Assembly (NCBI GenBank): GCA_036676985.1
Contig: JAKFBU010000039.1
Location: forward strand, 128,001 to 192,000
DNA: 64,000 bases
Source: Candidatus Sericytochromatia bacterium
Lineage (GTDB): Bacteria; Cyanobacteriota; Sericytochromatia; S15B-MN24; UBA4093
Direction: 5' to 3'
Of the stretch, positions 3,807 to 63,218 are shown one piece after another. The position numbers and the translations under genes were made by a program. Position 1 is the stretch's first letter. Each line of letters starts with the position of its first letter. A model generated the notes under the pieces. The model saw only the letters and a program-made list of their open reading frames with translations. It searched no databases and was not told where the DNA came from.

Positions 3807-4889
3807 ATGGCCAAGACGATGACGGCCAACCAGGGCGTGGCGCCCCCCGCGATCCCTGAGACCATGCAGGCGGTCGTCAAGACCCGCCCGGAGCGGGGCG
3901 CGACGCTCGTCACGACGGCCGTTCCCACCATCCGCCCCGACGAGGTGCTGGTCCGGGTCCAGGCGACGACGGTCTGCGGCACCGACCTCCACCTCTTCAC
4001 CTGGGATCCCTGGTCGGCGGGCCGCGTGAAGCCGCCCCTCATCATCGGGCACGAGCTCGCGGGCGAGGTCGTGGCGGTGGGCGCGGACGTCACGACCGCC
4101 CGGATCGGCGACTACGTCTCGGCCGAGACCCACGTGGTCTGCGGCCACTGCTACCAGTGCCGCACGGGCCAGGCCCACGTCTGCGCCAACACCCGGATCC
4201 TGGGCGTGGACATCCCGGGCTGCTTCGCCGAGTACGTGGCGGTGCCGGCGGCCAACCTCTGGAAGAACGACGCAAGCCTCCCCCTGGAGTGGGCGCCGGT
4301 CCAGGAGCCCCTCGGCAACGCCGTGCACACGGTGCTCGCCGGAGACGTGGCCGGCCGGACGGTCGTCATCAACGGCTGCGGCCCCATCGGCATCCTCGCC
4401 TGCGGCGTGGCCAAGGCGGCGGGCGCGGGGGCCGTCATCGCCATCGACCTCAACGCCTACCGCCTCGATCTGGCCCGCCAGCTGGGCGCGACCGTGACCA
4501 TCAAGGCCGACGAGGAGGACGCCGTGGCACGGGTCCTCCAGGAAGTGCCGGGCGGCGTGGACGTCGTCTGCGAGATGTCCGGGCACCCGCAGGCCATGCG
4601 CGACGCCTTCAAGATGGTGCGCGCGGGCGGCCGCTACTCGATCCTGGGCATCCCCGGCAAGCCGGTGGAGCTGGACGTGGCCAACGACATCGTCATGCGC
4701 GGCGTGACGGTGCAGGGCATCACGGGCCGGCGCATGATGGACACCTGGTACCAGGTGGCCAACTTGCTGAACTCGCGCCAGCTGGATCTGGCGCCCATGA
4801 TCACCCACCGCATGCCGCTCGCCGACTTCGAGGCGGCTATGGAGCTGATGCTCTCGGGCAACTGCGGCAAGATCGTCCTGACCCCCTAA
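3807..4889 (+). CDS. tdh: L-threonine 3-dehydrogenase
   Basis: CGTDLH, GHE, CGHCYQC..C zinc site, GCGPIG, GITGRRM..TWY; adjacent to kbl. Confidence 0.93.
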   Translation: MAKTMTANQGVAPPAIPETMQAVVKTRPERGATLVTTAVPTIRPDEVLVRVQATTVCGTDLHLFTWDPWSAGRVKPPLIIGHELAGEVVAVGADVTTARIGDYVSAETHVVCGHCYQCRTGQAHVCANTRILGVDIPGCFAEYVAVPAANLWKNDASLPLEWAPVQEPLGNAVHTVLAGDVAGRTVVINGCGPIGILACGVAKAAGAGAVIAIDLNAYRLDLARQLGATVTIKADEEDAVARVLQEVPGGVDVVCEMSGHPQAMRDAFKMVRAGGRYSILGIPGKPVELDVANDIVMRGVTVQGITGRRMMDTWYQVANLLNSRQLDLAPMITHRMPLADFEAAMELMLSGNCGKIVLTP

Positions 4890-56352: not shown

Positions 56353-56429
56353 CGGGGCGTAGCGCAGCTTGGTAGCGCATCTGCTTTGGGAGCAGAGGGT
56401 CCTGGGTTCGAATCCCAGCGCTCCGACCA
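56353..56429 (+). tRNA. tRNA-Pro(TGG)
   Basis: Full cloverleaf; anticodon arm tctgc-tt TGG ga-gcaga; TTCGAAT; encoded CCA. Confidence 0.97.
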
Positions 56430-56443
56430 TTTACCTAACCCGT

Positions 56444-56518
56444 GCGGGTGTAACTCAGTGGTAGAGTTCCTGCCTTCCAAGCAGGCTGTCGTGGGTTCGA
56501 ATCCCATCGCCCGCTCCA
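56444..56518 (+). tRNA. tRNA-Gly(TCC), intact anchor of the cassette array
   Basis: gcgggtg/cgcccgc acceptor stem, cctgc-ct TCC aa-gcagg, TTCGAAT, T-CCA end. Confidence 0.97.
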
Positions 56519-56523
56519 AACAA

Positions 56524-56560
56524 GAGGCCCTGGCGTGATGCCAGGGCCTCCTTCTTTTCT
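56524..56560 (+). terminator. Terminator after tRNA-Gly
   Basis: gaggccctggc-gtgat-gccagggcctc + cttcttttct. Confidence 0.8.
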
Positions 56561-56570
56561 CCGAGTTGGC

Positions 56571-56618
56571 GGACGGAATGTGAAACGAATGAAACAGATG
56601 AAACAAGGCTTGTTTCAT
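56571..56618 (+). repeat. GGACGGAA + 3x TGAAAC (9-bp period) + inverted GTTTCA element, copy 1
   Basis: TGAAAC at 56581, 56590, 56599; GTTTCA at 56612; same spacing at 58912 and 59711. Confidence 0.8.
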
Positions 56619-56646
56619 GGACAATCAGGCAGGGAATATCCAGAAT

Positions 56647-57204
56647 ATGAGACCAGGACCCGTACTGCTTTCAGTTCTTGCCGTAGCCATCCTAAGTGGG
56701 TGTGGTGTTGTCAGGAATATTGCGGCATCGGCTCCCACGCCTCAAAGCCTTTCCTTTCGAACAGTAGCCCCAACTCCCGGATCTGGCAGCGATGTGCTCG
56801 ACGGGATTCGCGCGTCTGGGCTAGTAGCACGTAGTCAGTCTGAACTGGTTAGAGAGCTTGTAAATCGTAGATACGAGACAGAGCAAGTATCCGATAATCA
56901 AGCCTATGAGGCCTTTCTCAGCAAGTCGATTCCCACGTTAGATTTCTCAACAGAACAGGGCATTCTCGCTACTTTTGGCGCACAAGGTAACACGTGTTAC
57001 CGCGGCGAAATTGTTTCTGTTGAAGAGCGTCAAGATCGAATCGTTGTACACACTGTTCTTTGGGCACCCCGCTACGGGCAAAGCTGCGGAGCGGCGATTG
57101 TCTATCCCTACCACTACGTTGCGATCCCGAAGTCGGCAAAACCAGTCGAATTTCGCGAACCCGTTAGAAAAGAAGTTCCCGGAGCCTGGTGGCAGATCTT
57201 CTGA
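56647..57204 (+). CDS. PrcB C-terminal-domain-like lipoprotein (cassette 1)
   Basis: LSGC lipobox; LDFS..GAQ..Y.G.I..VEE..AIVYPY.YVAIP...P.EF. Confidence 0.7.
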   Translation: MRPGPVLLSVLAVAILSGCGVVRNIAASAPTPQSLSFRTVAPTPGSGSDVLDGIRASGLVARSQSELVRELVNRRYETEQVSDNQAYEAFLSKSIPTLDFSTEQGILATFGAQGNTCYRGEIVSVEERQDRIVVHTVLWAPRYGQSCGAAIVYPYHYVAIPKSAKPVEFREPVRKEVPGAWWQIF

Positions 57205-57221
57205 TAAAGGTTGATTAAACG

Positions 57222-57629
57222 ATGTTCCGCCTAAAGTTCGCCGGGGCGATTGCTGCTGGCGTGCTCGTAACAAGTTGCAGCTTCCCTGCCTCTGGAGTGG
57301 TTGTTGGCACGATCACGCACCTTTCTGTCAAAGGGTATTTCGGGACCAATGTGCCAGTAACCATTCGGGCAAGGGCAACCTTTCCTGGGGCTATCGACCA
57401 TGCGTCTCTAACGACAGACGTTTCAGCTCGATCAGGTAACACGATCCGGGTCATGGCCACAGCCAGTCGAGCCCAACATTTTCTTGGGCTTGGGGTTTTC
57501 CCCGTTGATACATCCAGCCCAAACAATACCGAGATAGAGACGACAGTTAGCGTAAGTAGCCCTGGCGTATACGTAATTGAGGGATTGCAAGATGGAGCGG
57601 TCACGGCTTCCACTTCCTTCAGCATTTGA
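57222..57629 (+). CDS. Hypothetical lipoprotein (cassette 1)
   Basis: AAAGG upstream; VTSC lipobox-like; beta-rich. Confidence 0.6.
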   Translation: MFRLKFAGAIAAGVLVTSCSFPASGVVVGTITHLSVKGYFGTNVPVTIRARATFPGAIDHASLTTDVSARSGNTIRVMATASRAQHFLGLGVFPVDTSSPNNTEIETTVSVSSPGVYVIEGLQDGAVTASTSFSI

Positions 57630-57673
57630 CTTGCCAGCAGTGCGGAAATGGCCTCGCTTTGCTGCGACACACA

Positions 57674-57803
57674 GCGGGTGTGCCACCGATGGTGGCAGCA
57701 AGCAACTCCGTGGTAGAGTTCCTGCCTTCCAAGCAGGCTGTCGTGGGTTCGAATCCCATCGCCCGCTCCAAACACGAGGCCCTGGCTTGATGCCAGGGCC
57801 TCG
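57674..57803 (+). repeat. tRNA-Gly-derived repeat R1 (nt 1-8 + 22-nt insert + nt 9-75) plus hairpin
   Basis: gcgggtgt-[gccaccgatggtggcagcaagc]-aactccgtgg...cgctcca; 66/67 match to tRNA nt 9-75. Confidence 0.92.
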
Positions 57804-57920: not shown

Positions 57921-58760
57921 ATGGAAATCCGTGATGTCACCATTCCTGGCTTGTCAGGCGCTTTGGTAGACATGGACATAAACAGCACCGGCCGGCTCGC
58001 ATATATATGTAAATCTTTAAACGGCTACTCAGTATTTGTAGATGGCGAGAAGGTAGATATTGGGCAAGGCGTTCCCTATGATATTCGCCTTCTCTCAAAT
58101 GATGAATTCGTCTTGTTTTGCCACCACGGCGAATATATCGATAAATATTATCGACTTGAAAGGTATCAAAAATCCGCTCATTTAGGCTGGCATAGCAATT
58201 GGTCCTGGAGTATTGACCCCCAGTACGAGAATATCACCTGTACGGATCGATGGATTGCCATCGGCTTTTCCGATATGAATAGAAAAGGCGTCTTGGCAAT
58301 TCCTGACCATGGGCACTCCCTGGTTTACTATAATGACATATTCTGGGAAGAAGCAGTCCGCGGCGTCGAGATATACGCAATGTGTAAAGGGCCGCGGAAT
58401 TCAATCTATTTTCATCCCTACACCGATTTTCAACTTGTGCAATGGAATCTTGATACGATGACCCAGGTCGTATGGGTAACACCTGAGGCGGTTCACGGAT
58501 CAAATGCAGTTTCCGTAACGGATGGTACGGCCTACTTTTACTCGCCCTATGATGAAGAACAGTATGAGGGAGATGAATTCAACTGGAAAAACGTTAGAAT
58601 AACTGAGATAAGGGAGCATTCGTTCTATTCCTGGGAGATTGGAAGCTCGGTAGTAAAAAAAGTTGGCGAGTACAAGCTGAACGGGTCCACAATTAGAGGC
58701 CTTCCGGGGGGACGATTCCTTGTTATTCATCGAGACTCGTACTCAATCATCGCGTTTTAA
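57921..58760 (+). CDS. Hypothetical protein, low GC (cassette 2)
   Basis: 279-aa ORF, GGAG upstream; stop codon 3 nt before repeat R2. Confidence 0.75.
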   Translation: MEIRDVTIPGLSGALVDMDINSTGRLAYICKSLNGYSVFVDGEKVDIGQGVPYDIRLLSNDEFVLFCHHGEYIDKYYRLERYQKSAHLGWHSNWSWSIDPQYENITCTDRWIAIGFSDMNRKGVLAIPDHGHSLVYYNDIFWEEAVRGVEIYAMCKGPRNSIYFHPYTDFQLVQWNLDTMTQVVWVTPEAVHGSNAVSVTDGTAYFYSPYDEEQYEGDEFNWKNVRITEIREHSFYSWEIGSSVVKKVGEYKLNGSTIRGLPGGRFLVIHRDSYSIIAF

Positions 58761-58763
58761 GAA

Positions 58764-58892
58764 TTGGGTATGCCACCTCTGGTGGCAGCTAGCAACTCAG
58801 TGGTAGAGTTCCTGCCTTCCAAGCAGGCTGTCGTGGGTTCGAATCCCATCGCCCGCTCCAAATGCAAGCCCCCGAGCCAGTCTCGGGGGCTT
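58764..58892 (+). repeat. tRNA-Gly-derived repeat R2 plus a different hairpin
   Basis: ttgggtat-[gccacctctggtggcagctagc]-aactcagtgg...cgctcca; 67/67 match; aagcccccgag/ctcgggggctt hairpin. Confidence 0.92.
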
Positions 58893-58911
58893 CTTCGTTC
58901 TCCGGGCCAGT

Positions 58912-58959
58912 GGACGGAACGCGATACAAATAAAACAAATGAAACTACTTTTGCTTCAT
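58912..58959 (+). repeat. GGACGGAA/TGAAAC element, copy 2
   Basis: cgatac, taaaac, tgaaac at 9-bp period; gcttca at +41. Confidence 0.7.
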
Positions 58960-59069
58960 CTGCTGTCAGGGGTACGGTTGAGGCGCCGAGGACAAGTACG
59001 GCCTCGTTTGTGACTTACTCTAGATTGGCCGTATGGCCTTATCCAAGGTAAACTTTCTTGGTCCCTCCG

Positions 59070-59501
59070 ATGGCCTTTGACGTGACGCCGCGCCTTGATG
59101 ACAAGGGAATTACTTTGAAAACAGTTCGAGACCCGGCCGACGGGATCCACAGCAGAATACAGAACGGCACGATATATTCCTGGAATGTAAAGGACCTCTG
59201 GGCGTTGGCGGCAAGGCTCCCCGTCTTTCAAATTGACCCACAAGCCGTCATAGATCTGGACAAAGATGGATGGTTCGTTGGCAAAGAGCCAGTACTTCGG
59301 CTGGTGCTAGAGCACGTTCGGCGAATCCAAGACGCCGATCTCTCCTATCCGGTTATTTTGGATGCTGATGGGTCGATAATGGATGGAGCCCATCGTGTGG
59401 CCAAGGCAATCCTTGAAGGACGTCAGACGATTGACGCCGTTCAGTTTCGATATCTTCCTCCTCCATCTCGAACTGCGCTGGTAGCTGGCCAGGACAATTG
59501 A
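59070..59501 (+). CDS. Small ParB/Srx-like domain protein (cassette 3)
   Basis: ADLSYPVIL...G.IMDGAHRVAKA. Confidence 0.7.
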   Translation: MAFDVTPRLDDKGITLKTVRDPADGIHSRIQNGTIYSWNVKDLWALAARLPVFQIDPQAVIDLDKDGWFVGKEPVLRLVLEHVRRIQDADLSYPVILDADGSIMDGAHRVAKAILEGRQTIDAVQFRYLPPPSRTALVAGQDN

Positions 59502-59564
59502 CTTTAGCTTTCGGCTCATCAGTGGCGGAATTCCTGACATAGTAGAAGCATGGTCTGGATGTCA

Positions 59565-59691
59565 GCACGTGTGCCGCGACGGTGCCTGCGAGCACCTCAG
59601 TAGAGTAATTCCAGCCTTCCAAGCAGGCTGCGGTGGGTTCGAATCCCTTCGCCCGTTCCAAACACGAGGCCCTGGCGTTTGCCAGGGCCTC
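59565..59691 (+). repeat. Degenerate tRNA-Gly-derived repeat R3 plus hairpin
   Basis: gcacgtgt-[21-nt insert]-acctcag...cgttcca; about 11 mismatches in 67; gaggccctggc/gccagggcctc. Confidence 0.88.
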
Positions 59692-59710
59692 CCTCTATTC
59701 GCCAAAATGC

Positions 59711-59758
59711 GGACGGAAAATGAAACGAATGTAACAGATGATACGGGGCATGTTTCAT
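59711..59758 (+). repeat. GGACGGAA/TGAAAC element, copy 3
   Basis: tgaaac, tgtaac, tgatac at 9-bp period; gtttca at +41. Confidence 0.78.
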
Positions 59759-59841
59759 GGCTCATGTGATCTATTCTGTTATCAGGCTGCGCGATATTTA
59801 CATCAGTCATATCAAACAATCGCTGAGGGCTCATAAACGCT

Positions 59842-60387
59842 ATGCAAGCAAAACACCTCTTACTCCCGGTGGTCTGCATTTCGCTACTCTCCGGCTGCGG
59901 AATGGTTCGTAATATTGCGGGGGCAAGCCCGCTCGCTCCATCTATCTCTTTCCGGGTTGTATCACCTGCCAGTAGCCACACAGGCCGTTTCAACATTCGT
60001 GCGCAGAACCACGTCTTTAGAACCCAGCAAGAAGTCGATAGCTTCCTCGCTACTGTGCCTGTAACCGCATTCGACGGCAATGGAAACCAGGTTAGTGAAA
60101 CTCTCCCCGCTATCGATTTTTCAAAAGAAGTCGGAATTCTTGTGCTCTTTGGTGCCCAATCCGACGGAGGCTACAGCGGCGATATCTCCGCGATTGAAGA
60201 GAAGCAAGACCGATTGATCGTCCATCCGCTCCTCTGGACTCATAGTAATGAGCCTGGCGTAGGCTACACGATGGCCATCGTTTACCCCTACAAATATGTA
60301 GCAATCCCAATTAGTTCCAAGCCCATCGAGTTTGCTTCCACCGTTGATCGCCCACGCCCCAGTCCCTGGTGGTCGATCTTCTATTAG
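59842..60387 (+). CDS. PrcB C-terminal-domain-like lipoprotein (cassette 4), paralog of 56647-57204
   Basis: LSGCG.VRNIA, IDFSKE, GAQSDGGY, AIVYPYKYVAIP, WW.IF; stop 4 nt before R4. Confidence 0.75.
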   Translation: MQAKHLLLPVVCISLLSGCGMVRNIAGASPLAPSISFRVVSPASSHTGRFNIRAQNHVFRTQQEVDSFLATVPVTAFDGNGNQVSETLPAIDFSKEVGILVLFGAQSDGGYSGDISAIEEKQDRLIVHPLLWTHSNEPGVGYTMAIVYPYKYVAIPISSKPIEFASTVDRPRPSPWWSIFY

Positions 60388-60391
60388 GCTG

Positions 60392-60532
60392 GCGGGTGTG
60401 GCACCTATGGTAGCAGTAAGCAACCCAGTGGTAGCGTTCCTGCCTGCCAAGCAGGCTGTCGTGGGCCGGAATCCCATCGCCCGCTCCATTTCAAAGCCTC
60501 AGCTTGATGCCCAGGCCTCGTGTTTGGAGCGA
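60392..60532 (+). repeat. Degenerate tRNA-Gly-derived repeat R4 plus inverted 3' end
   Basis: gcgggtgt-[ggcacctatggtagcagtaagc]-aacccag...cgctcca; 6 mismatches; then cctcgtgtttggagcg (reverse complement of cgctccaaacacgagg). Confidence 0.88.
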
Positions 60533-60626
60533 ACAACAACCATCGTATAGACGTGTTGACACGAACATAAAATCATCGTAATGTCTACTGTCTCCCAATC
60601 ACGACTATGCAGACAGGGACGTAACG

Positions 60627-60995
60627 ATGCATAAGAAAATGACTGTCCTCGGCCTTTGCTTGACCACCGGCCTCCTGCTGAGCGGTTGCATTTCGACGCA
60701 AAAAATGCAGTTCGACCGTGCATTTGACCCTACCGCCGGAGACAGCCGGAATGTGGAGGTCCTCGACAGTGCCAACGTCAAGCGCTCCTATAAGGTTATC
60801 GGCATCGTTGAGGCGGATGCAGTTGCCGACTACGGATTGAACAACGTACTGTCGGCCTTGAAACTAGAGGCCAAAAAGATGGGCGGACAGGCCGTCATTG
60901 ATGTGCAGCGTGTCCCAATGTACTCCAAAACGTTTTGGGATGGCTTGTTCCCGAGTGGCCAGCGCTGGAGCGGCAAGGTCATTACCTGGGAATAG
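60627..60995 (+). CDS. Small lipoprotein, YbjQ/heavy-metal-binding-like fold (cassette 5)
   Basis: LSGC lipobox; YKVIGIVEA..LKLEAKKMGGQAVI. Confidence 0.7.
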   Translation: MHKKMTVLGLCLTTGLLLSGCISTQKMQFDRAFDPTAGDSRNVEVLDSANVKRSYKVIGIVEADAVADYGLNNVLSALKLEAKKMGGQAVIDVQRVPMYSKTFWDGLFPSGQRWSGKVITWE

Positions 60996-61017
60996 TTCAC
61001 CGATTCCATCGTCCAAG

Positions 61018-61106
61018 CCTGCCTACATAGCAGGCTGTCGTGCGATCTCGCACCAAGCAAGAGGCCCTGGCTTGATGCCGGGGCCTCTTGCTTGGAGCGG
61101 GCGATG
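61018..61106. repeat. tRNA-Gly remnant R5 with long palindrome and inverted tRNA 3' end
   Basis: cctgcctacatagcaggctgtcgtg (anticodon arm remnant); agcaagaggccctggc-ttgat-gccggggcctcttgct; tggagcgggcgatg = reverse complement of the tRNA end. Confidence 0.8.
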
Positions 61107-61248: not shown

Positions 61249-61737
61249 ATGACGAAGTCCAGGATCTGCCTGTGGTATGACCGTGACGCGGAGGAAGCTG
61301 CACGCTTCTACGCCCAAACCTTTCCCGATAGCACGGTCGGCGCGGTGCAGCGAGCGCCCTCGGACTTCCCGAGCGGCAAGGCAGGCGACGTGCTGACGGT
61401 CGAGTTCACGGTCTGTGGGCTGCCTTGCCTGGGCCTCAATGGCGGGGACGCGTTCCCGCAAACCGAAGCGTTCTCCTTTCAAATCGAGACGGAGGACCAG
61501 GCGGAGACCGACCGCTATTGGAACGCGATCGTCGGAAACGGCGGTGAGGAGAGCGCGTGTGGCTGGTGCAAGGACAAATGGGGCGTGTCCTGGCAGATCA
61601 CGCCGCGTATCCTGACGGAGGCGATGGCCCAAGGGGGCGACGTCGCGAAGCGCGCGTTTGAGGCGATGATGGAGATGCAAAAGATCGACGTCGCCAAAAT
61701 CGAGGCGGCGGTGCGCGGCGAGACCGAGTCGAAATAA
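61249..61737 (+). CDS. VOC/PhnB family protein (3-demethylubiquinone-9 3-methyltransferase-like)
   Basis: CLWYD.DAEEAARFY, LNGG, CGWCKDKWGVSWQITP, MMEMQKID. Confidence 0.9.
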   Translation: MTKSRICLWYDRDAEEAARFYAQTFPDSTVGAVQRAPSDFPSGKAGDVLTVEFTVCGLPCLGLNGGDAFPQTEAFSFQIETEDQAETDRYWNAIVGNGGEESACGWCKDKWGVSWQITPRILTEAMAQGGDVAKRAFEAMMEMQKIDVAKIEAAVRGETESK

Positions 61738-62012
61738 ATCACCCGACTCCCGTATCGAAGCCTCGGCCTTGCGCCGGGGCTTCGGTGTTTCTCCGACCAA
61801 ATGTGACCCGTTAAGGCCGTGACTCAAGAAGGCGCGAAGCGATCGGCTCGCTCAAAGGCAAATCGCTCACCGGAAAGTGCTTGTGGAAAGCATCCCATGA
61901 CTGTTGGTAGAAGCACCGTTGAACGAAGAACGCTTGCCTGGCAGCATATCGAAAGGCCTCGTTTGATGTGCCATTTGCTTGGCACGGCGCGATAGCAAGA
62001 GGGAGCGAAGCG

Positions 62013-62711
62013 ATGAATCACAACCTCGGCAGCATCCTGATGATGGGGCTCATCTTCTGTCCACTGGTGCTCACGGGTTGCTTGACCGCGCCTTCGGCCA
62101 CGACGCTGTTTCAGCATGACACCTCACGATCGGCCCCGGACGGCTATCAGGTAGCCGCCATCCGCAGCTTCTCCAAGCACAAGGGCGACTACCTTCCGGC
62201 GCATAACTTCAAACTAGAGATGGATGCGGTCGTGGTCGGCTCGTTCCAGAACGCCCAGGGAGTCCCACGATCGCCTGTCCTTCAAGAGGCTGATTGGCCG
62301 GCAATCGACCTGCGAACCGGTGGGTTCAAAGAGGTCAGCGGACTCGAGGCGGAAGTGGAAGTCATCGAGTACCGGAACGGTGACGATCCCATCACTCACA
62401 AACGCGCCGGTAAGGCCAAGTATAAGAACATCACCCTCAAACGGGGTCAATTCAGCGATCCTTCGGTAGCCGACTGGCTTAAAAAGGTCCTCGCTGGAAC
62501 AACGGACCGTAAAAGTGGCAGCATTATCTACCTCGACCGCGAGGGGAGCGAGATATTACGCTATAACTTCTTCGAGGCATGGCCAGTCCGCTGGAAAATC
62601 GCCAATCGGGACAGTCAAGCCATCGTTGAGATTGAGTTTGCGGTGGAACGAATTGAGCCAGCCGGCAAAGCCCTGCCTGGTGATCCGATTCCCGGAATCG
62701 ATGTTCGTTAG
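62013..62711 (+). CDS. Contractile tail tube protein (T4 gp19/Afp1-like) fused to a lipoprotein signal
   Basis: LTGC lipobox; FKEVSGL..EVIEYRNG, KYKNITLKRG, RKSGSI..LD..G, YNFFEAWPVRW. Confidence 0.8.
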   Translation: MNHNLGSILMMGLIFCPLVLTGCLTAPSATTLFQHDTSRSAPDGYQVAAIRSFSKHKGDYLPAHNFKLEMDAVVVGSFQNAQGVPRSPVLQEADWPAIDLRTGGFKEVSGLEAEVEVIEYRNGDDPITHKRAGKAKYKNITLKRGQFSDPSVADWLKKVLAGTTDRKSGSIIYLDREGSEILRYNFFEAWPVRWKIANRDSQAIVEIEFAVERIEPAGKALPGDPIPGIDVR

Positions 62712-63123: not shown

Positions 63124-63218
63124 TCGGGTGTGTACATCCCCAATGGTGGCAGCAAGCAGGTCGAATCCCATCGCCCGCTCTCCCCCTCGAGGCCCCGACG
63201 TAACGCCGGGGCCTCGAG
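63124..63218 (+). repeat. Internally deleted tRNA-Gly-derived repeat R6 plus hairpin
   Basis: tcgggtgt..atggtggcagcaagc joined to agg-tcgaatcccatcgcccgctc; ctcgaggcccc/ggggcctcgag. Confidence 0.82.

What the first reader, a model, noticed from the sequence alone, without database searches (positions are those of the whole stretch)
57674..57770. Conserved 22-nt hairpin insert between tRNA nucleotides 8 and 9 in every long repeat
Seen: the repeats keep the tRNA 5' end (gcgggtgt) and nt 9-75 but carry an insert: gccaccGATggtggcagcaagc (R1), gccaccTCTggtggcagctagc (R2), gccgcgacggtgcctgcgagc (R3), ggcaccTATggtagcagtaagc (R4) and ..ccAATggtggcagcaagc (R6). The tgccacc/ggtggca stem is largely kept while the 3-nt loop varies. 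Ordinary att duplication does not produce this. Inference: the cassette site is a tRNA mimic with an extra arm, serving as a recombinase-binding palindrome, a folded ssDNA substrate analogous to attC, or an RNase P/Z punctuation signal that is not a working tRNA.
Basis: partly seen in the sequence, partly recalled or inferred. Interest (0 to 1): 0.78.

Follow-up and report, generated by a model that had tools for sequence, protein, structure and literature searches.

The report
Hairpin-marked pseudo-tRNA scars between gene cassettes
Downstream of a glycine tRNA gene, a soil bacterium has stacked short foreign gene cassettes, each ending in a disabled copy of the tRNA with the same 22-base hairpin insertion; the layout recalls an integron, but nothing yet shows that the hairpin has a function.

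Summary
Five repeats (R1, R2, R3, R4, R6) after the single-copy tRNA-Gly(TCC) gene carry a homologous 21-26 nt insert directly after tRNA nt 8. Contigs from four other sequencing runs carry the same junctions, so this is not an assembly artefact.

The repeats bound 0.5-1.3 kb, low-GC, same-strand cassettes with mostly unrelated ORFs. I read them as the distal junctions of an integrase-less cassette array seeded at the tRNA. The insert arose once and travels with the cassette-borne half of the junction.

Points for constraint:
- R1 and R2 keep a perfect 7-bp stem while the loop, linker and acceptor strand differ.
- The module is far better conserved than the only homologous cargo pair (43% aa identity).

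Points against a proven function:
- 0 of 28 pairs covary.
- R3, R4 and R6 decay without compensation.
- There is no other copy in this genome, 60 relatives, 185,579 species genomes, JGI metagenomes, IMG/VR, plasmids or phages.
- No recombinase lies on the contig.
- Relatives with the same island type have ordinary partial-tRNA scars.

Verdict: a new variant of tRNA-seeded island accretion with integron-like architecture. The hairpin's role is unresolved. Interest is moderate.

The parts
56353..56429 (+). tRNA-Pro(TGG), co-located with the target tRNA
   Evidence: ARAGORN; Rfam tRNA 66.2 bits
56444..56518 (+). Intact tRNA-Gly(TCC), the head of the array. It is the only TCC isoacceptor in the genome.
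   Evidence: 69.4 bits; 1 of 56 tRNAs found contig by contig
56524..56550 (+). Terminator T0. Near-identical copies follow R1 (57776-57802) and R3 (59666-59691). A different, compensated stem follows R2 (58866-58892).
   Evidence: (families D4, D5)
56569..56620 (+). Leader with three direct TGAAAC repeats and one inverted copy. It is repeated at 58910-58961 and 59709-59760.
   Evidence: family D6. The same module follows tRNA-Gly, tRNA-Val and tRNA-Thr genes in family relatives.
56647..57629 (+). Cassette 1: PrcB_C-like lipoprotein (to 57204) plus a 135-aa ORF (57222-57629)
57674..57770 (+). R1 pseudo-tRNA-Gly. Insert 57682-57703 with a perfect 7-bp stem and loop GAT.
57921..58760 (+). Cassette 2: 279-aa ORF of no known family. 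Its stop lies 3 nt before R2.
58764..58860 (+). R2 pseudo-tRNA-Gly. Insert 58772-58793 with a perfect stem and loop TCT. Nt 9-75 are identical to the tRNA, while the 5' acceptor strand differs at 3 of 7 positions.
   Evidence: junction seen in four other runs
59058..59501 (+). Cassette 3: 147-aa ORF with no family hit
59565..59660 (+). R3, a degenerate copy. Its 21-nt insert is 59573-59593. The D arm, T stem and acceptor stem are broken.
59842..60387 (+). Cassette 4: second PrcB_C-like lipoprotein, 43% aa identical to cassette 1. Its stop lies 4 nt before R4.
60392..60488 (+). R4. Insert 60400-60421 with two uncompensated stem mismatches. The T loop is mutated.
60627..60995 (+). Cassette 5: 122-aa lipoprotein-like ORF
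61017..61055 (+). R5, an ordinary partial scar that starts at the anticodon stem and has no insert. It is followed by terminator T5 and an inverted copy of the tRNA 3' end (61061-61106).
61249..62711 (+). Cassettes 6 and 7: a PF06983 (3-demethylubiquinone-9 3-methyltransferase family) protein (61249-61737) and a lipobox-bearing gp19/CIS tube-like protein (61968-62711)
63124..63180 (+). R6, the last scar. It has tcgggtgt, a 26-nt insert-like stretch that keeps GGTGGCAGCAAGC, then the T loop to the 3' end. Terminator T6 is at 63189-63215.
   Evidence: (family D7)

Best explanation
The long repeats are the distal junctions (attR-type scars) of at least five short cassettes without an integrase. 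The cassettes were stacked, newest next to the gene, at the single-copy tRNA-Gly(TCC) gene.

Each cassette appears to consist of the tRNA 3' part, a terminator, sometimes a TGAAAC leader, one or two ORFs, and a disabled copy of the tRNA 5' part. In this lineage that cassette-borne 5' part is a full-length tRNA copy. It carries one ancestral 22-nt palindromic insertion after nt 8.

The insertion happened once and is inherited as part of the cassette's site module. It is intact in the two youngest copies and decays without compensation once a junction is buried in the array. Any role therefore belongs to the mobile or newly integrated state.

Shown: the anatomy, the common origin of the insert, the foreign composition, the lack of a recombinase in cis, and a different cassette order in another population.

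Inferred: integration by a recombinase encoded elsewhere (or by homologous recombination through the roughly 100-190 nt module), and that the stem is kept because that process or protein needs it. Alternatively it only keeps the distal copy from being a second tRNA gene.
For: 1. The array has a head-to-tail layout with an intact tRNA only at the proximal end.
2. Cassettes are 45-62.5% GC, against 65.7% for the upstream host DNA.
3. All cassette ORFs are on the + strand. Stop codons lie 3-4 nt before R2 and R4.
4. The cargo is unrelated apart from c1a and c4. These are 43% aa identical, with third codon positions 33% identical. The adjacent 30-nt 5' modules of R1 and R4 differ at only 4 of 30 positions (Fisher p = 6e-8 against third positions). 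The module is therefore either constrained or much younger than the cargo.
5. R1 and R2 show 6 differences in the 30 positions outside the tRNA body, none of them in the 14 stem positions (p = 0.013).
6. Family relatives (G004, G005, G007, G008) have low-GC islands after tRNA-Gly(TCC), tRNA-Val(GAC) and tRNA-Thr(CGT) genes. These carry the same terminator and TGAAAC module, repeated tRNA fragments and no integrase on those contigs. A PrcB-like cassette with the same leader sits in the G007 tRNA-Gly island.
7. In run X4, from another study, contigs join the 5' part of R2 to the terminator and leader of cassette 1. They also join terminators T1 and T2 to a c1-type leader, and join the end of cassette 7 to an R4-like hairpin segment and then the host flank at 93% identity. 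This is the modular reshuffling the model predicts.
8. The tycheposon preprint describes the same general accretion model, with partial tRNAs scattered in islands next to a full tRNA (passages read).
Against: - No tyrosine or serine recombinase and no Y1 transposase lies on the 212-kb contig. The extra integrases in this genome and its relatives sit at other tRNAs: Sec, Met and Leu.
- There is no covariation. 0 of 28 pairs change on both sides, and shuffles do as well as the data.
- R4, R3 and R6 lose the stem without compensation.
- No circular form or empty site was seen.
- The hairpin-type site was not found outside this strain and one relative.
- Homologous cassettes in G007 and in L116 manage without it, so the hairpin is not needed by the island type as a whole.
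- The stem-versus-loop contrast rests on a single pair (R1 and R2) and was noticed after the fact.
Confidence: 0.5

Rival explanations
1. The insert is a neutral hitch-hiker. A 22-nt palindromic insertion, for example from a template switch, hit one redundant tRNA copy. It was then spread by unequal crossing-over or duplication of repeat units, and the cargo was later replaced. The hairpin does nothing.
For: - There is no covariation.
- Distal copies decay in both the hairpin and the tRNA body.
- No copy exists elsewhere in this genome or in the reference collections.
- Relatives' islands have ordinary scars.
- Other pseudo-tRNAs in this island family carry unrelated inserts at other positions: L116 after nt 26, and G007:C30 after the anticodon loop.
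Against: - Duplication does not explain five unrelated cargoes with GC from 45% to 62.5%.
- If R1 and R4 were duplicated together with c1a and c4, the insert should be near saturation like the third codon positions. It shows 4 differences in 23 positions against 119 in 178 (p = 1e-5).
- R1 and R2 differ at 6 of 16 non-stem positions but at 0 of 14 stem positions.
- R5, an ordinary scar, sits between hairpin-type scars. Hairpin-type cassettes therefore arrived at different times.
Confidence: 0.25
2. The repeat acts as RNA. It would be a tRNA-like element with an extra arm at the 3' end of each cassette transcript, cut by RNase P or RNase Z or used to stabilise the mRNA.
For: - R1 folds into an acceptor stem, an extra hairpin and a cloverleaf (-39.6 kcal/mol, z = -2.0).
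- The repeat starts exactly at tRNA nt 1, and variant contigs in X4 also start their match at 57673.
- ORF stops lie 3-4 nt upstream of R2 and R4, and a terminator follows each repeat.
- The CCA end is encoded.
Against: - The acceptor stems of R2 and R3 are broken without compensation, the T stem of R3 is broken and the T loop of R4 is mutated.
- Folds of R2, R3 and R4 are no better than shuffles (z = -0.75, +0.44, -1.23).
- No Rfam family other than tRNA matches at the gathering score.
- Homologous cassettes in G007 and L116 lack the element.
Confidence: 0.1
3. The insert is a small hairpin transposable element of the REP/RAYT kind, or derived from IS200/IS605, that inserted into a tRNA copy.
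For: It is a 7-bp palindrome with a 3-nt spacer that starts with TG and ends with CA, followed by a 6-nt tail. This geometry resembles the subterminal hairpins of such elements. That comparison is recalled and was not tested.
Against: - The palindrome occurs only in the array. The 2 exact hits genome-wide are R1 and R2, and all motif hits next to tRNA sequence are array copies.
- The genome has no Y1 transposase (0 matches).
Confidence: 0.03
4. The repeats are an assembly or binning artefact of a repetitive region in a metagenome-assembled genome.
For: The genome is in 79 contigs with 5.09% contamination.
Against: - Independent contigs from four other runs, from four studies, cover the junctions with 0-1 differences. 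Examples are X4 59406-61087 and X5 58396-58830.
- The repeats differ from one another and flank unique cargo.
Confidence: 0.01

Closest known systems
tRNA-seeded genomic islands built by repeated integration (tycheposon islands of Prochlorococcus; passages of bioRxiv 10.1101/2020.12.28.424599 read)
   Same: A full tRNA at the proximal end. tRNA-derived direct repeats lie scattered through foreign, low-GC cargo. Newer material sits next to the tRNA, and degenerate older remnants lie distally.
   Different: Here the units are 0.5-1.3 kb with one or two ORFs, and no integrase or replication module was found. The repeats are full-length tRNA copies with a shared 22-nt hairpin insertion, not fragments of about 40 nt from the 3' part.
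Integron cassette arrays (attI, attC, IntI; features recalled, no paper read here)
   Same: A one-way array of short, mostly single-ORF cassettes in the same orientation. Each ends in a conserved palindrome-bearing site just after the stop codon, and the order differs between populations.
   Different: No intI gene is nearby. The site is a tRNA copy, and the 17-nt palindrome has neither the length nor the R/L boxes of attC. Several cassettes bring their own leader and terminator. No ssDNA substrate has been shown.
Tandem ssrA-specific islands of Dehalococcoides (PMC3146451; only the search listing and the start of the abstract seen)
   Same: Islands integrated at a single-copy small-RNA gene.
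   Different: Those are large islands and carry no hairpin-marked full-length gene copy. The tandem arrangement with direct repeats of the gene's 3' end, and their site-specific recombinase, are recalled and were not read here.
Ordinary scars in the same bacterial family (G007 tRNA-Val and tRNA-Gly islands, G004:C70)
   Same: The same terminator and TGAAAC leader module, the same kind of cargo (including a PrcB-like lipoprotein cassette), and no integrase on the contig.
   Different: Their repeats start at the anticodon stem or loop (G007 tRNA-Val scars, G004:C70) or at the 3' side of the D stem (G007 tRNA-Gly scar). They have no 5' half and no hairpin.

Membership tests
tRNA-gene integration scars (attL/attR of integrative islands) | Intact target tRNA at one end, with tRNA-derived direct repeats bounding the inserted DNA | tested here: met
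tRNA-gene integration scars (attL/attR of integrative islands) | Inserted DNA is compositionally foreign | tested here: met
   Cassettes are 45-62.5% GC against 65.7% upstream
tRNA-gene integration scars (attL/attR of integrative islands) | The repeat is only the 3' part of the tRNA, from the anticodon or T loop onward | tested here: not met
   R1-R4 hold nt 1-75 plus the insert. Only R5 and the relatives' scars fit.
tRNA-gene integration scars (attL/attR of integrative islands) | A site-specific recombinase encoded in the element | tested here: not met
   0 of 5 PF00589 matches and 0 of 2 PF00239 matches lie on C39
Integron | An intI gene with attI and a promoter next to the array | tested here: not met
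   No PF00589 match on the contig. Upstream genes are host genes that are syntenic in relatives.
Integron | attC sites: imperfect palindromes of about 55-140 nt with R''/L'' and L'/R' boxes (recalled definition) | tested here: not met
   By sequence reading, the palindrome is 17 nt and has no GTTRRRY box
Integron | Short cassettes in the same orientation whose order varies between strains | tested here: met
   The variation is seen only as contig joints in one run.
Functional or intron-bearing tRNA | Recognised as a tRNA, with stems kept by compensation | tested here: not met
   ARAGORN calls none. Rfam matches only positions 9-63. 0 compensatory pairs.
REP/RAYT or IS200/IS605-derived hairpin elements | Many dispersed copies and a Y1 transposase | tested here: not met
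Conserved structured RNA | Covariation across homologues, or a match to a curated family | tested here: not met
   (no covariation, but only 4 sequences); nothing apart from the tRNA model reaches its family's gathering score.

The most novel reading that the evidence does not exclude
This is an integron-like gene-capture platform. The tRNA-Gly gene would play the part of attI. A tRNA mimic with an extra hairpin arm would be the cassette-borne site, possibly read as folded single-stranded DNA. A recombinase encoded elsewhere in the genome, or on a helper element, would move integrase-less single-gene cassettes among soil and groundwater bacteria of this family.
Probability: 0.15. Interest if true: 0.85.

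Novelty: new variant of a known kind. Interest (0 to 1): 0.45.

Why it matters
If the hairpin-bearing tRNA copy is a working recombination site, this would be a cassette system that borrows a tRNA gene as its docking point and needs no integrase of its own. That would be a second route, besides integrons, to gene-by-gene capture. It would also offer a way to ask how cassette sites become attached to unrelated ORFs. If the hairpin is only a lineage marker, it is still useful. It tags one family of cassettes, so their order, gain and loss can be followed across metagenomes. The wider point stands on the data either way. In this bacterial family, islands after tRNA-Gly, tRNA-Val and tRNA-Thr genes are built from short cargo units bounded by conserved modules, and no recombinase was found near those modules.

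Tried and rejected
Searches for the hairpin-type site elsewhere:
- BLAST of R1 plus flanks against 60 relatives. 55 of 61 genomes matched, but outside G000 no match starts before query base 35, so none covers the hairpin.
- A covariance model built from R1-R4, run over all 47 genomes of the class. Only R1, R2, R4 and R3 (122-79 bits) score above ordinary tRNA-Gly genes (78.3 bits or less). I checked 9 long-span hits, and all were ordinary tRNAs with upstream flank forced into the hairpin positions.
- Genome contigs pattern: 1 hit, a Pseudomonas coding region.
- Metagenome contigs pattern: 0 hits.
- Viral contigs: 16 chance hits for the first pattern and 0 for the second.
- Plasmids and phages: no match.
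- Records of the window's own genome may be left out of these collections.

Other leads that went nowhere:
- The iteron pattern in viral contigs gave 3 unrelated AT-rich hits.
- A protein-guided metagenome scan with three PrcB-like proteins gave 1 locus, L116. It has module-2 boundaries and a pseudo-tRNA-Thr with a different insert, but no Gly-type hairpin.
- The only homologue of cassette 2 (G008, 29% identity) is not next to tRNA-like sequence.
- Integrases elsewhere in G000, G004 and G007 sit beside tRNA-Sec, tRNA-Met and tRNA-Leu, without the TGAAAC module. I could not tie them to this array.
- REP/IS200-type element: rejected.
- A sigma-54 promoter reading of the insert and a parS-half-site reading of TGAAAC/GTTTCA were considered by eye against recalled consensus sequences. 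Neither fits in spacing or orientation, and no tool test was made.
- A weak GTGGYAG similarity between the insert and the D loop is at chance level by my rough count, which no call computed.
- No RNA holder is listed among the 17 runs, so expression and RNA ends could not be examined.
- In one search the cassette 1 region has lower summed contig depth than cassettes 2-5 in X4, X5 and X7. Contig depth cannot rank parts, so I draw nothing from it.
- Literature searches found no description of a hairpin-interrupted pseudo-tRNA as a cassette boundary. The terms were 'pseudo-tRNA / genomic island / integrase / tandem'; 'gene cassette / tRNA-like / recombination site / array'; 'integrase-less / tRNA / genomic islet / direct repeat'; and 'attP / entire tRNA / integrase / pseudo-tRNA'. 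Subscription journals are not covered, and supplements were not opened.

Full report
WHAT IS THERE

The window is G000:C39:128001-192000. A tRNA-Pro(TGG) gene (56353-56429) and a tRNA-Gly(TCC) gene (56444-56518) are called by ARAGORN and by Rfam. They are followed by about 6.7 kb of DNA at 45-62.5% GC, in a genome region of about 66% GC.

Repeat finding and alignment show four 96-97 nt copies of the whole tRNA-Gly. These are R1 (57674-57770), R2 (58764-58860), R3 (59565-59660) and R4 (60392-60488). There is also an internally deleted copy, R6 (63124-63180), and a short ordinary fragment, R5 (61017-61055).

R1-R4 each have 21-22 extra bases directly after tRNA nt 8. R6 has 26 extra bases there, whose 3' half and linker match R1. 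The extra bases read TGCCACC-NNN-GGTGGCA (with the first T being nt 8) plus GCWAGC.

The real tRNA has no insert, and it is the only TCC isoacceptor among the 56 tRNAs found contig by contig. The caveats are that the 5' ends of R2 and R3 differ from gcgggtgt, and that only R1 and R2 have a perfect stem.

IS IT REAL?

The exact palindrome GCCACC-N3-GGTGGC occurs twice in 4.68 Mb, at R1 and R2. Seventeen public runs from 8 studies hold parts of the stretch. I laid four of them, from four studies, on the window. Their contigs cover the c2-R2 junction (X5 58396-58830, X7 58645-58829, X8 58584-58816) and the R3-R4-R5 stretch (X4 59406-61087) with 0-1 differences. This rules out an assembly artefact.

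CONTEXT

Between the repeats lie one or two ORFs, all on the + strand:
- two PrcB_C-like lipoproteins (cassettes 1 and 4), which are 43% identical;
- three ORFs without any family;
- a small lipoprotein-like ORF;
- a PF06983 protein;
- a gp19/contractile-injection tube-like protein with a lipobox.

The stop codons of cassettes 2 and 4 lie 3 and 4 nt before the repeat. Each repeat is followed by a terminator hairpin. In cassettes 1, 3 and 4 there is also a leader with three direct TGAAAC repeats and one inverted copy (family D6).

No tyrosine recombinase, resolvase or Y1 transposase lies on the 212-kb contig.

RELATIVES

The upstream DUF4332 gene and the tRNA pair are syntenic in the family, but the cargo is not.

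G004, G005, G007 and G008 carry low-GC islands after tRNA-Gly(TCC), tRNA-Val(GAC) and tRNA-Thr(CGT) genes. These islands have the same terminator and TGAAAC module. The pattern was found in 7 of 47 class genomes, 5 of which are true hits, all in family f1.

In G007 the tRNA-Val island holds two units of 4.2 and 4.9 kb, bounded by copies of the tRNA from the anticodon loop onward. Their cargo includes an IS3-type transposase, a glyoxalase and a beta-lactamase-like ORF, and no integrase. No PF00589 match lies on any contig that carries the module, except G007:C30, where the match is 219 kb from the module.

A PrcB-like cassette with the same leader sits in the G007 tRNA-Gly island and ends in an ordinary scar without the hairpin.

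The island type is therefore shared by the family. The hairpin-marked full-length scar is special to G000.

IS THE HAIRPIN CONSTRAINED?

For constraint:
- R1 and R2 differ at 6 of the 16 non-stem positions of the 30-nt 5' module and at 0 of the 14 stem positions (p = 0.013).
- The 5' modules of R1 and R4 differ at 4 of 30 positions. The cargo genes beside them (c1a and c4) are near saturation at third codon positions, with 119 of 178 differing (p = 6e-8).
- The ordinary scar R5 lies between hairpin-type scars, so hairpin-type cassettes arrived more than once.

Against constraint:
- On R1-R4, 0 of 28 pairs change on both sides. In the hairpin helix 3 pairs never vary, 1 varies on one side only and 3 vary only by becoming unpaired. 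The shuffle control does equally well.
- R3, R4 and R6 lose the stem, and parts of the tRNA body, without compensation.
- RNA folds of R2-R4 are no better than shuffles.
- No further copy was found in 60 relatives, in the CM search of 47 genomes, or in the genome, metagenome, viral, plasmid and phage collections.

MOBILITY

Run X4, a groundwater sample from a different study, contains the G000 arrangement and also contigs with other joints:
- the 5' part of R2 is followed by the terminator and leader of cassette 1;
- terminators T1 and T2 are followed, after 12-19 other bases, by a c1-type leader;
- two contigs have a leader match that is followed by a match starting at 57673, one base before R1;
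- an 801-nt contig runs from the end of cassette 7 into an R4-like segment (60402-60454) and then into the host flank at about 93% identity.

These joints keep the 5' module with the cassette on its left, and the terminator and leader with the cassette on its right. A unit of the form [tRNA 3' part - terminator - leader - ORF - disabled 5' part] predicts exactly this. The joints are short-sided matches at 90% likeness or more in a metagenome, so they are suggestive rather than proof.

MOST LIKELY MECHANISM

The array grew by repeated insertion of small circular or linear cassettes at the tRNA-Gly gene. Each event restored the gene from the cassette's 3' part and pushed the older junctions outward. 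This is the accretion model described for tycheposon islands (passages read).

In this cassette lineage the site module is a full tRNA copy, disabled by one ancestral 22-nt palindromic insertion. The insertion is inherited and not re-created.

Whether a recombinase encoded elsewhere reads the palindrome, or whether it only inactivates the distal tRNA copy, or whether it is a passenger, cannot be decided with five related copies. I put 0.5 on the scar-of-a-cassette-lineage reading. Within that, roughly half goes to a real role for the stem. I put 0.25 on a purely neutral passenger in an array shaped by duplication and replacement, 0.1 on an RNA role, and little on the rest.

COMPARISON AND NOVELTY

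The array works like tRNA-seeded island accretion, and its layout looks like an integron array. It fails membership of integrons, having no intI and no attC features. It also departs from ordinary att scars, because the copy is full-length and interrupted and there is no integrase in cis. I file it as a new variant of a known kind.

The boldest reading the data allow is a tRNA-docked, integron-like capture system with a tRNA-mimic cassette site. I give that 0.15.

Noticed in passing
window 56569-56620, 58910-58961, 59709-59760; also G004:C35, C70, C25; G007:C22 (several) and C30; G005:C31, C136; G008:C57: A conserved leader with three direct (A)TGAAAC repeats at 9-nt spacing plus one inverted copy. 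It always lies roughly 40-160 nt after a tRNA or tRNA scar and its terminator, at tRNA-Gly, tRNA-Val and tRNA-Thr loci. It is confined to one bacterial family in the 47 class genomes searched. It could be recombinase arm-type sites or a shared operator.
   Followed up: partly
L072, L073, L076 (G007:C22), L116, G000:C4:53689: A second repeated boundary module: a GC-rich hairpin (GCCCGCCGGGTGTGCGTCCGGCGGGC) followed by TCAGAGAGGTGGTGTGTGGTTGATG...TTGCCAC. It has 7 copies in the G007 loci and 2 in L116, where two similar hairpin-plus-motif stretches at L116:3780-3850 and 4766-4846 flank the PrcB-like cassette. G000 has one copy.
   Followed up: partly
L116:441-545 (JGI contig) and L092 (G007:C30): Two tRNA-Thr(CGT)-like copies are interrupted by unrelated inserts of about 31 nt after nt 26 and about 28 nt after the anticodon loop. 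Both are followed by the TGAAAC module, and ARAGORN calls neither. Interrupted full-length tRNA copies may be a recurring feature of these islands.
   Followed up: partly
window 60520-60537 and 61088-61106: Right after the loops of terminators T4 and T5, the sequence is the reverse complement of the tRNA-Gly 3' end. This makes palindromes of about 23-27 bp that reach into the acceptor strand. The origin is unexplained. It could be an inverted scar or a fold-back event.
   Followed up: no
window 61968-62711: The ORF combines a lipoprotein-type signal (…LVLTGC) with a T4 gp19/contractile-injection inner-tube domain (PF06841, E = 1.5e-29). It stands alone, with no other tail genes nearby.
   Followed up: no
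L118 (G008:C76): The only homologue of the 279-aa cassette 2 protein (29% identity) lies directly after a long ORF that, by eye, resembles the end of a secreted polymorphic toxin. Cassette 2 could be an orphan immunity gene. This was not tested.
   Followed up: no
L073:11169-12083 (G007:C22): A cargo unit of the tRNA-Val island in an environmental relative encodes a class-A beta-lactamase-like protein (PF13354, E = 8.6e-45). An IS3-type transposase sits in the neighbouring unit.
   Followed up: no
Run contig by contig it gives 56. A 90-nt 'tRNA-Gly(ccc)' on C76 is a false call inside GC-rich coding DNA.
   Followed up: yes
window 56478-56559 and 59620-59700: Sub-threshold Rfam matches to BjrC68, a Bradyrhizobiaceae sRNA (24.1 and 19.9 bits; gathering score 39). 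They cover the tRNA T arm plus the terminator. The match may reflect tRNA-derived sequence, but I did not look at the family.
   Followed up: no
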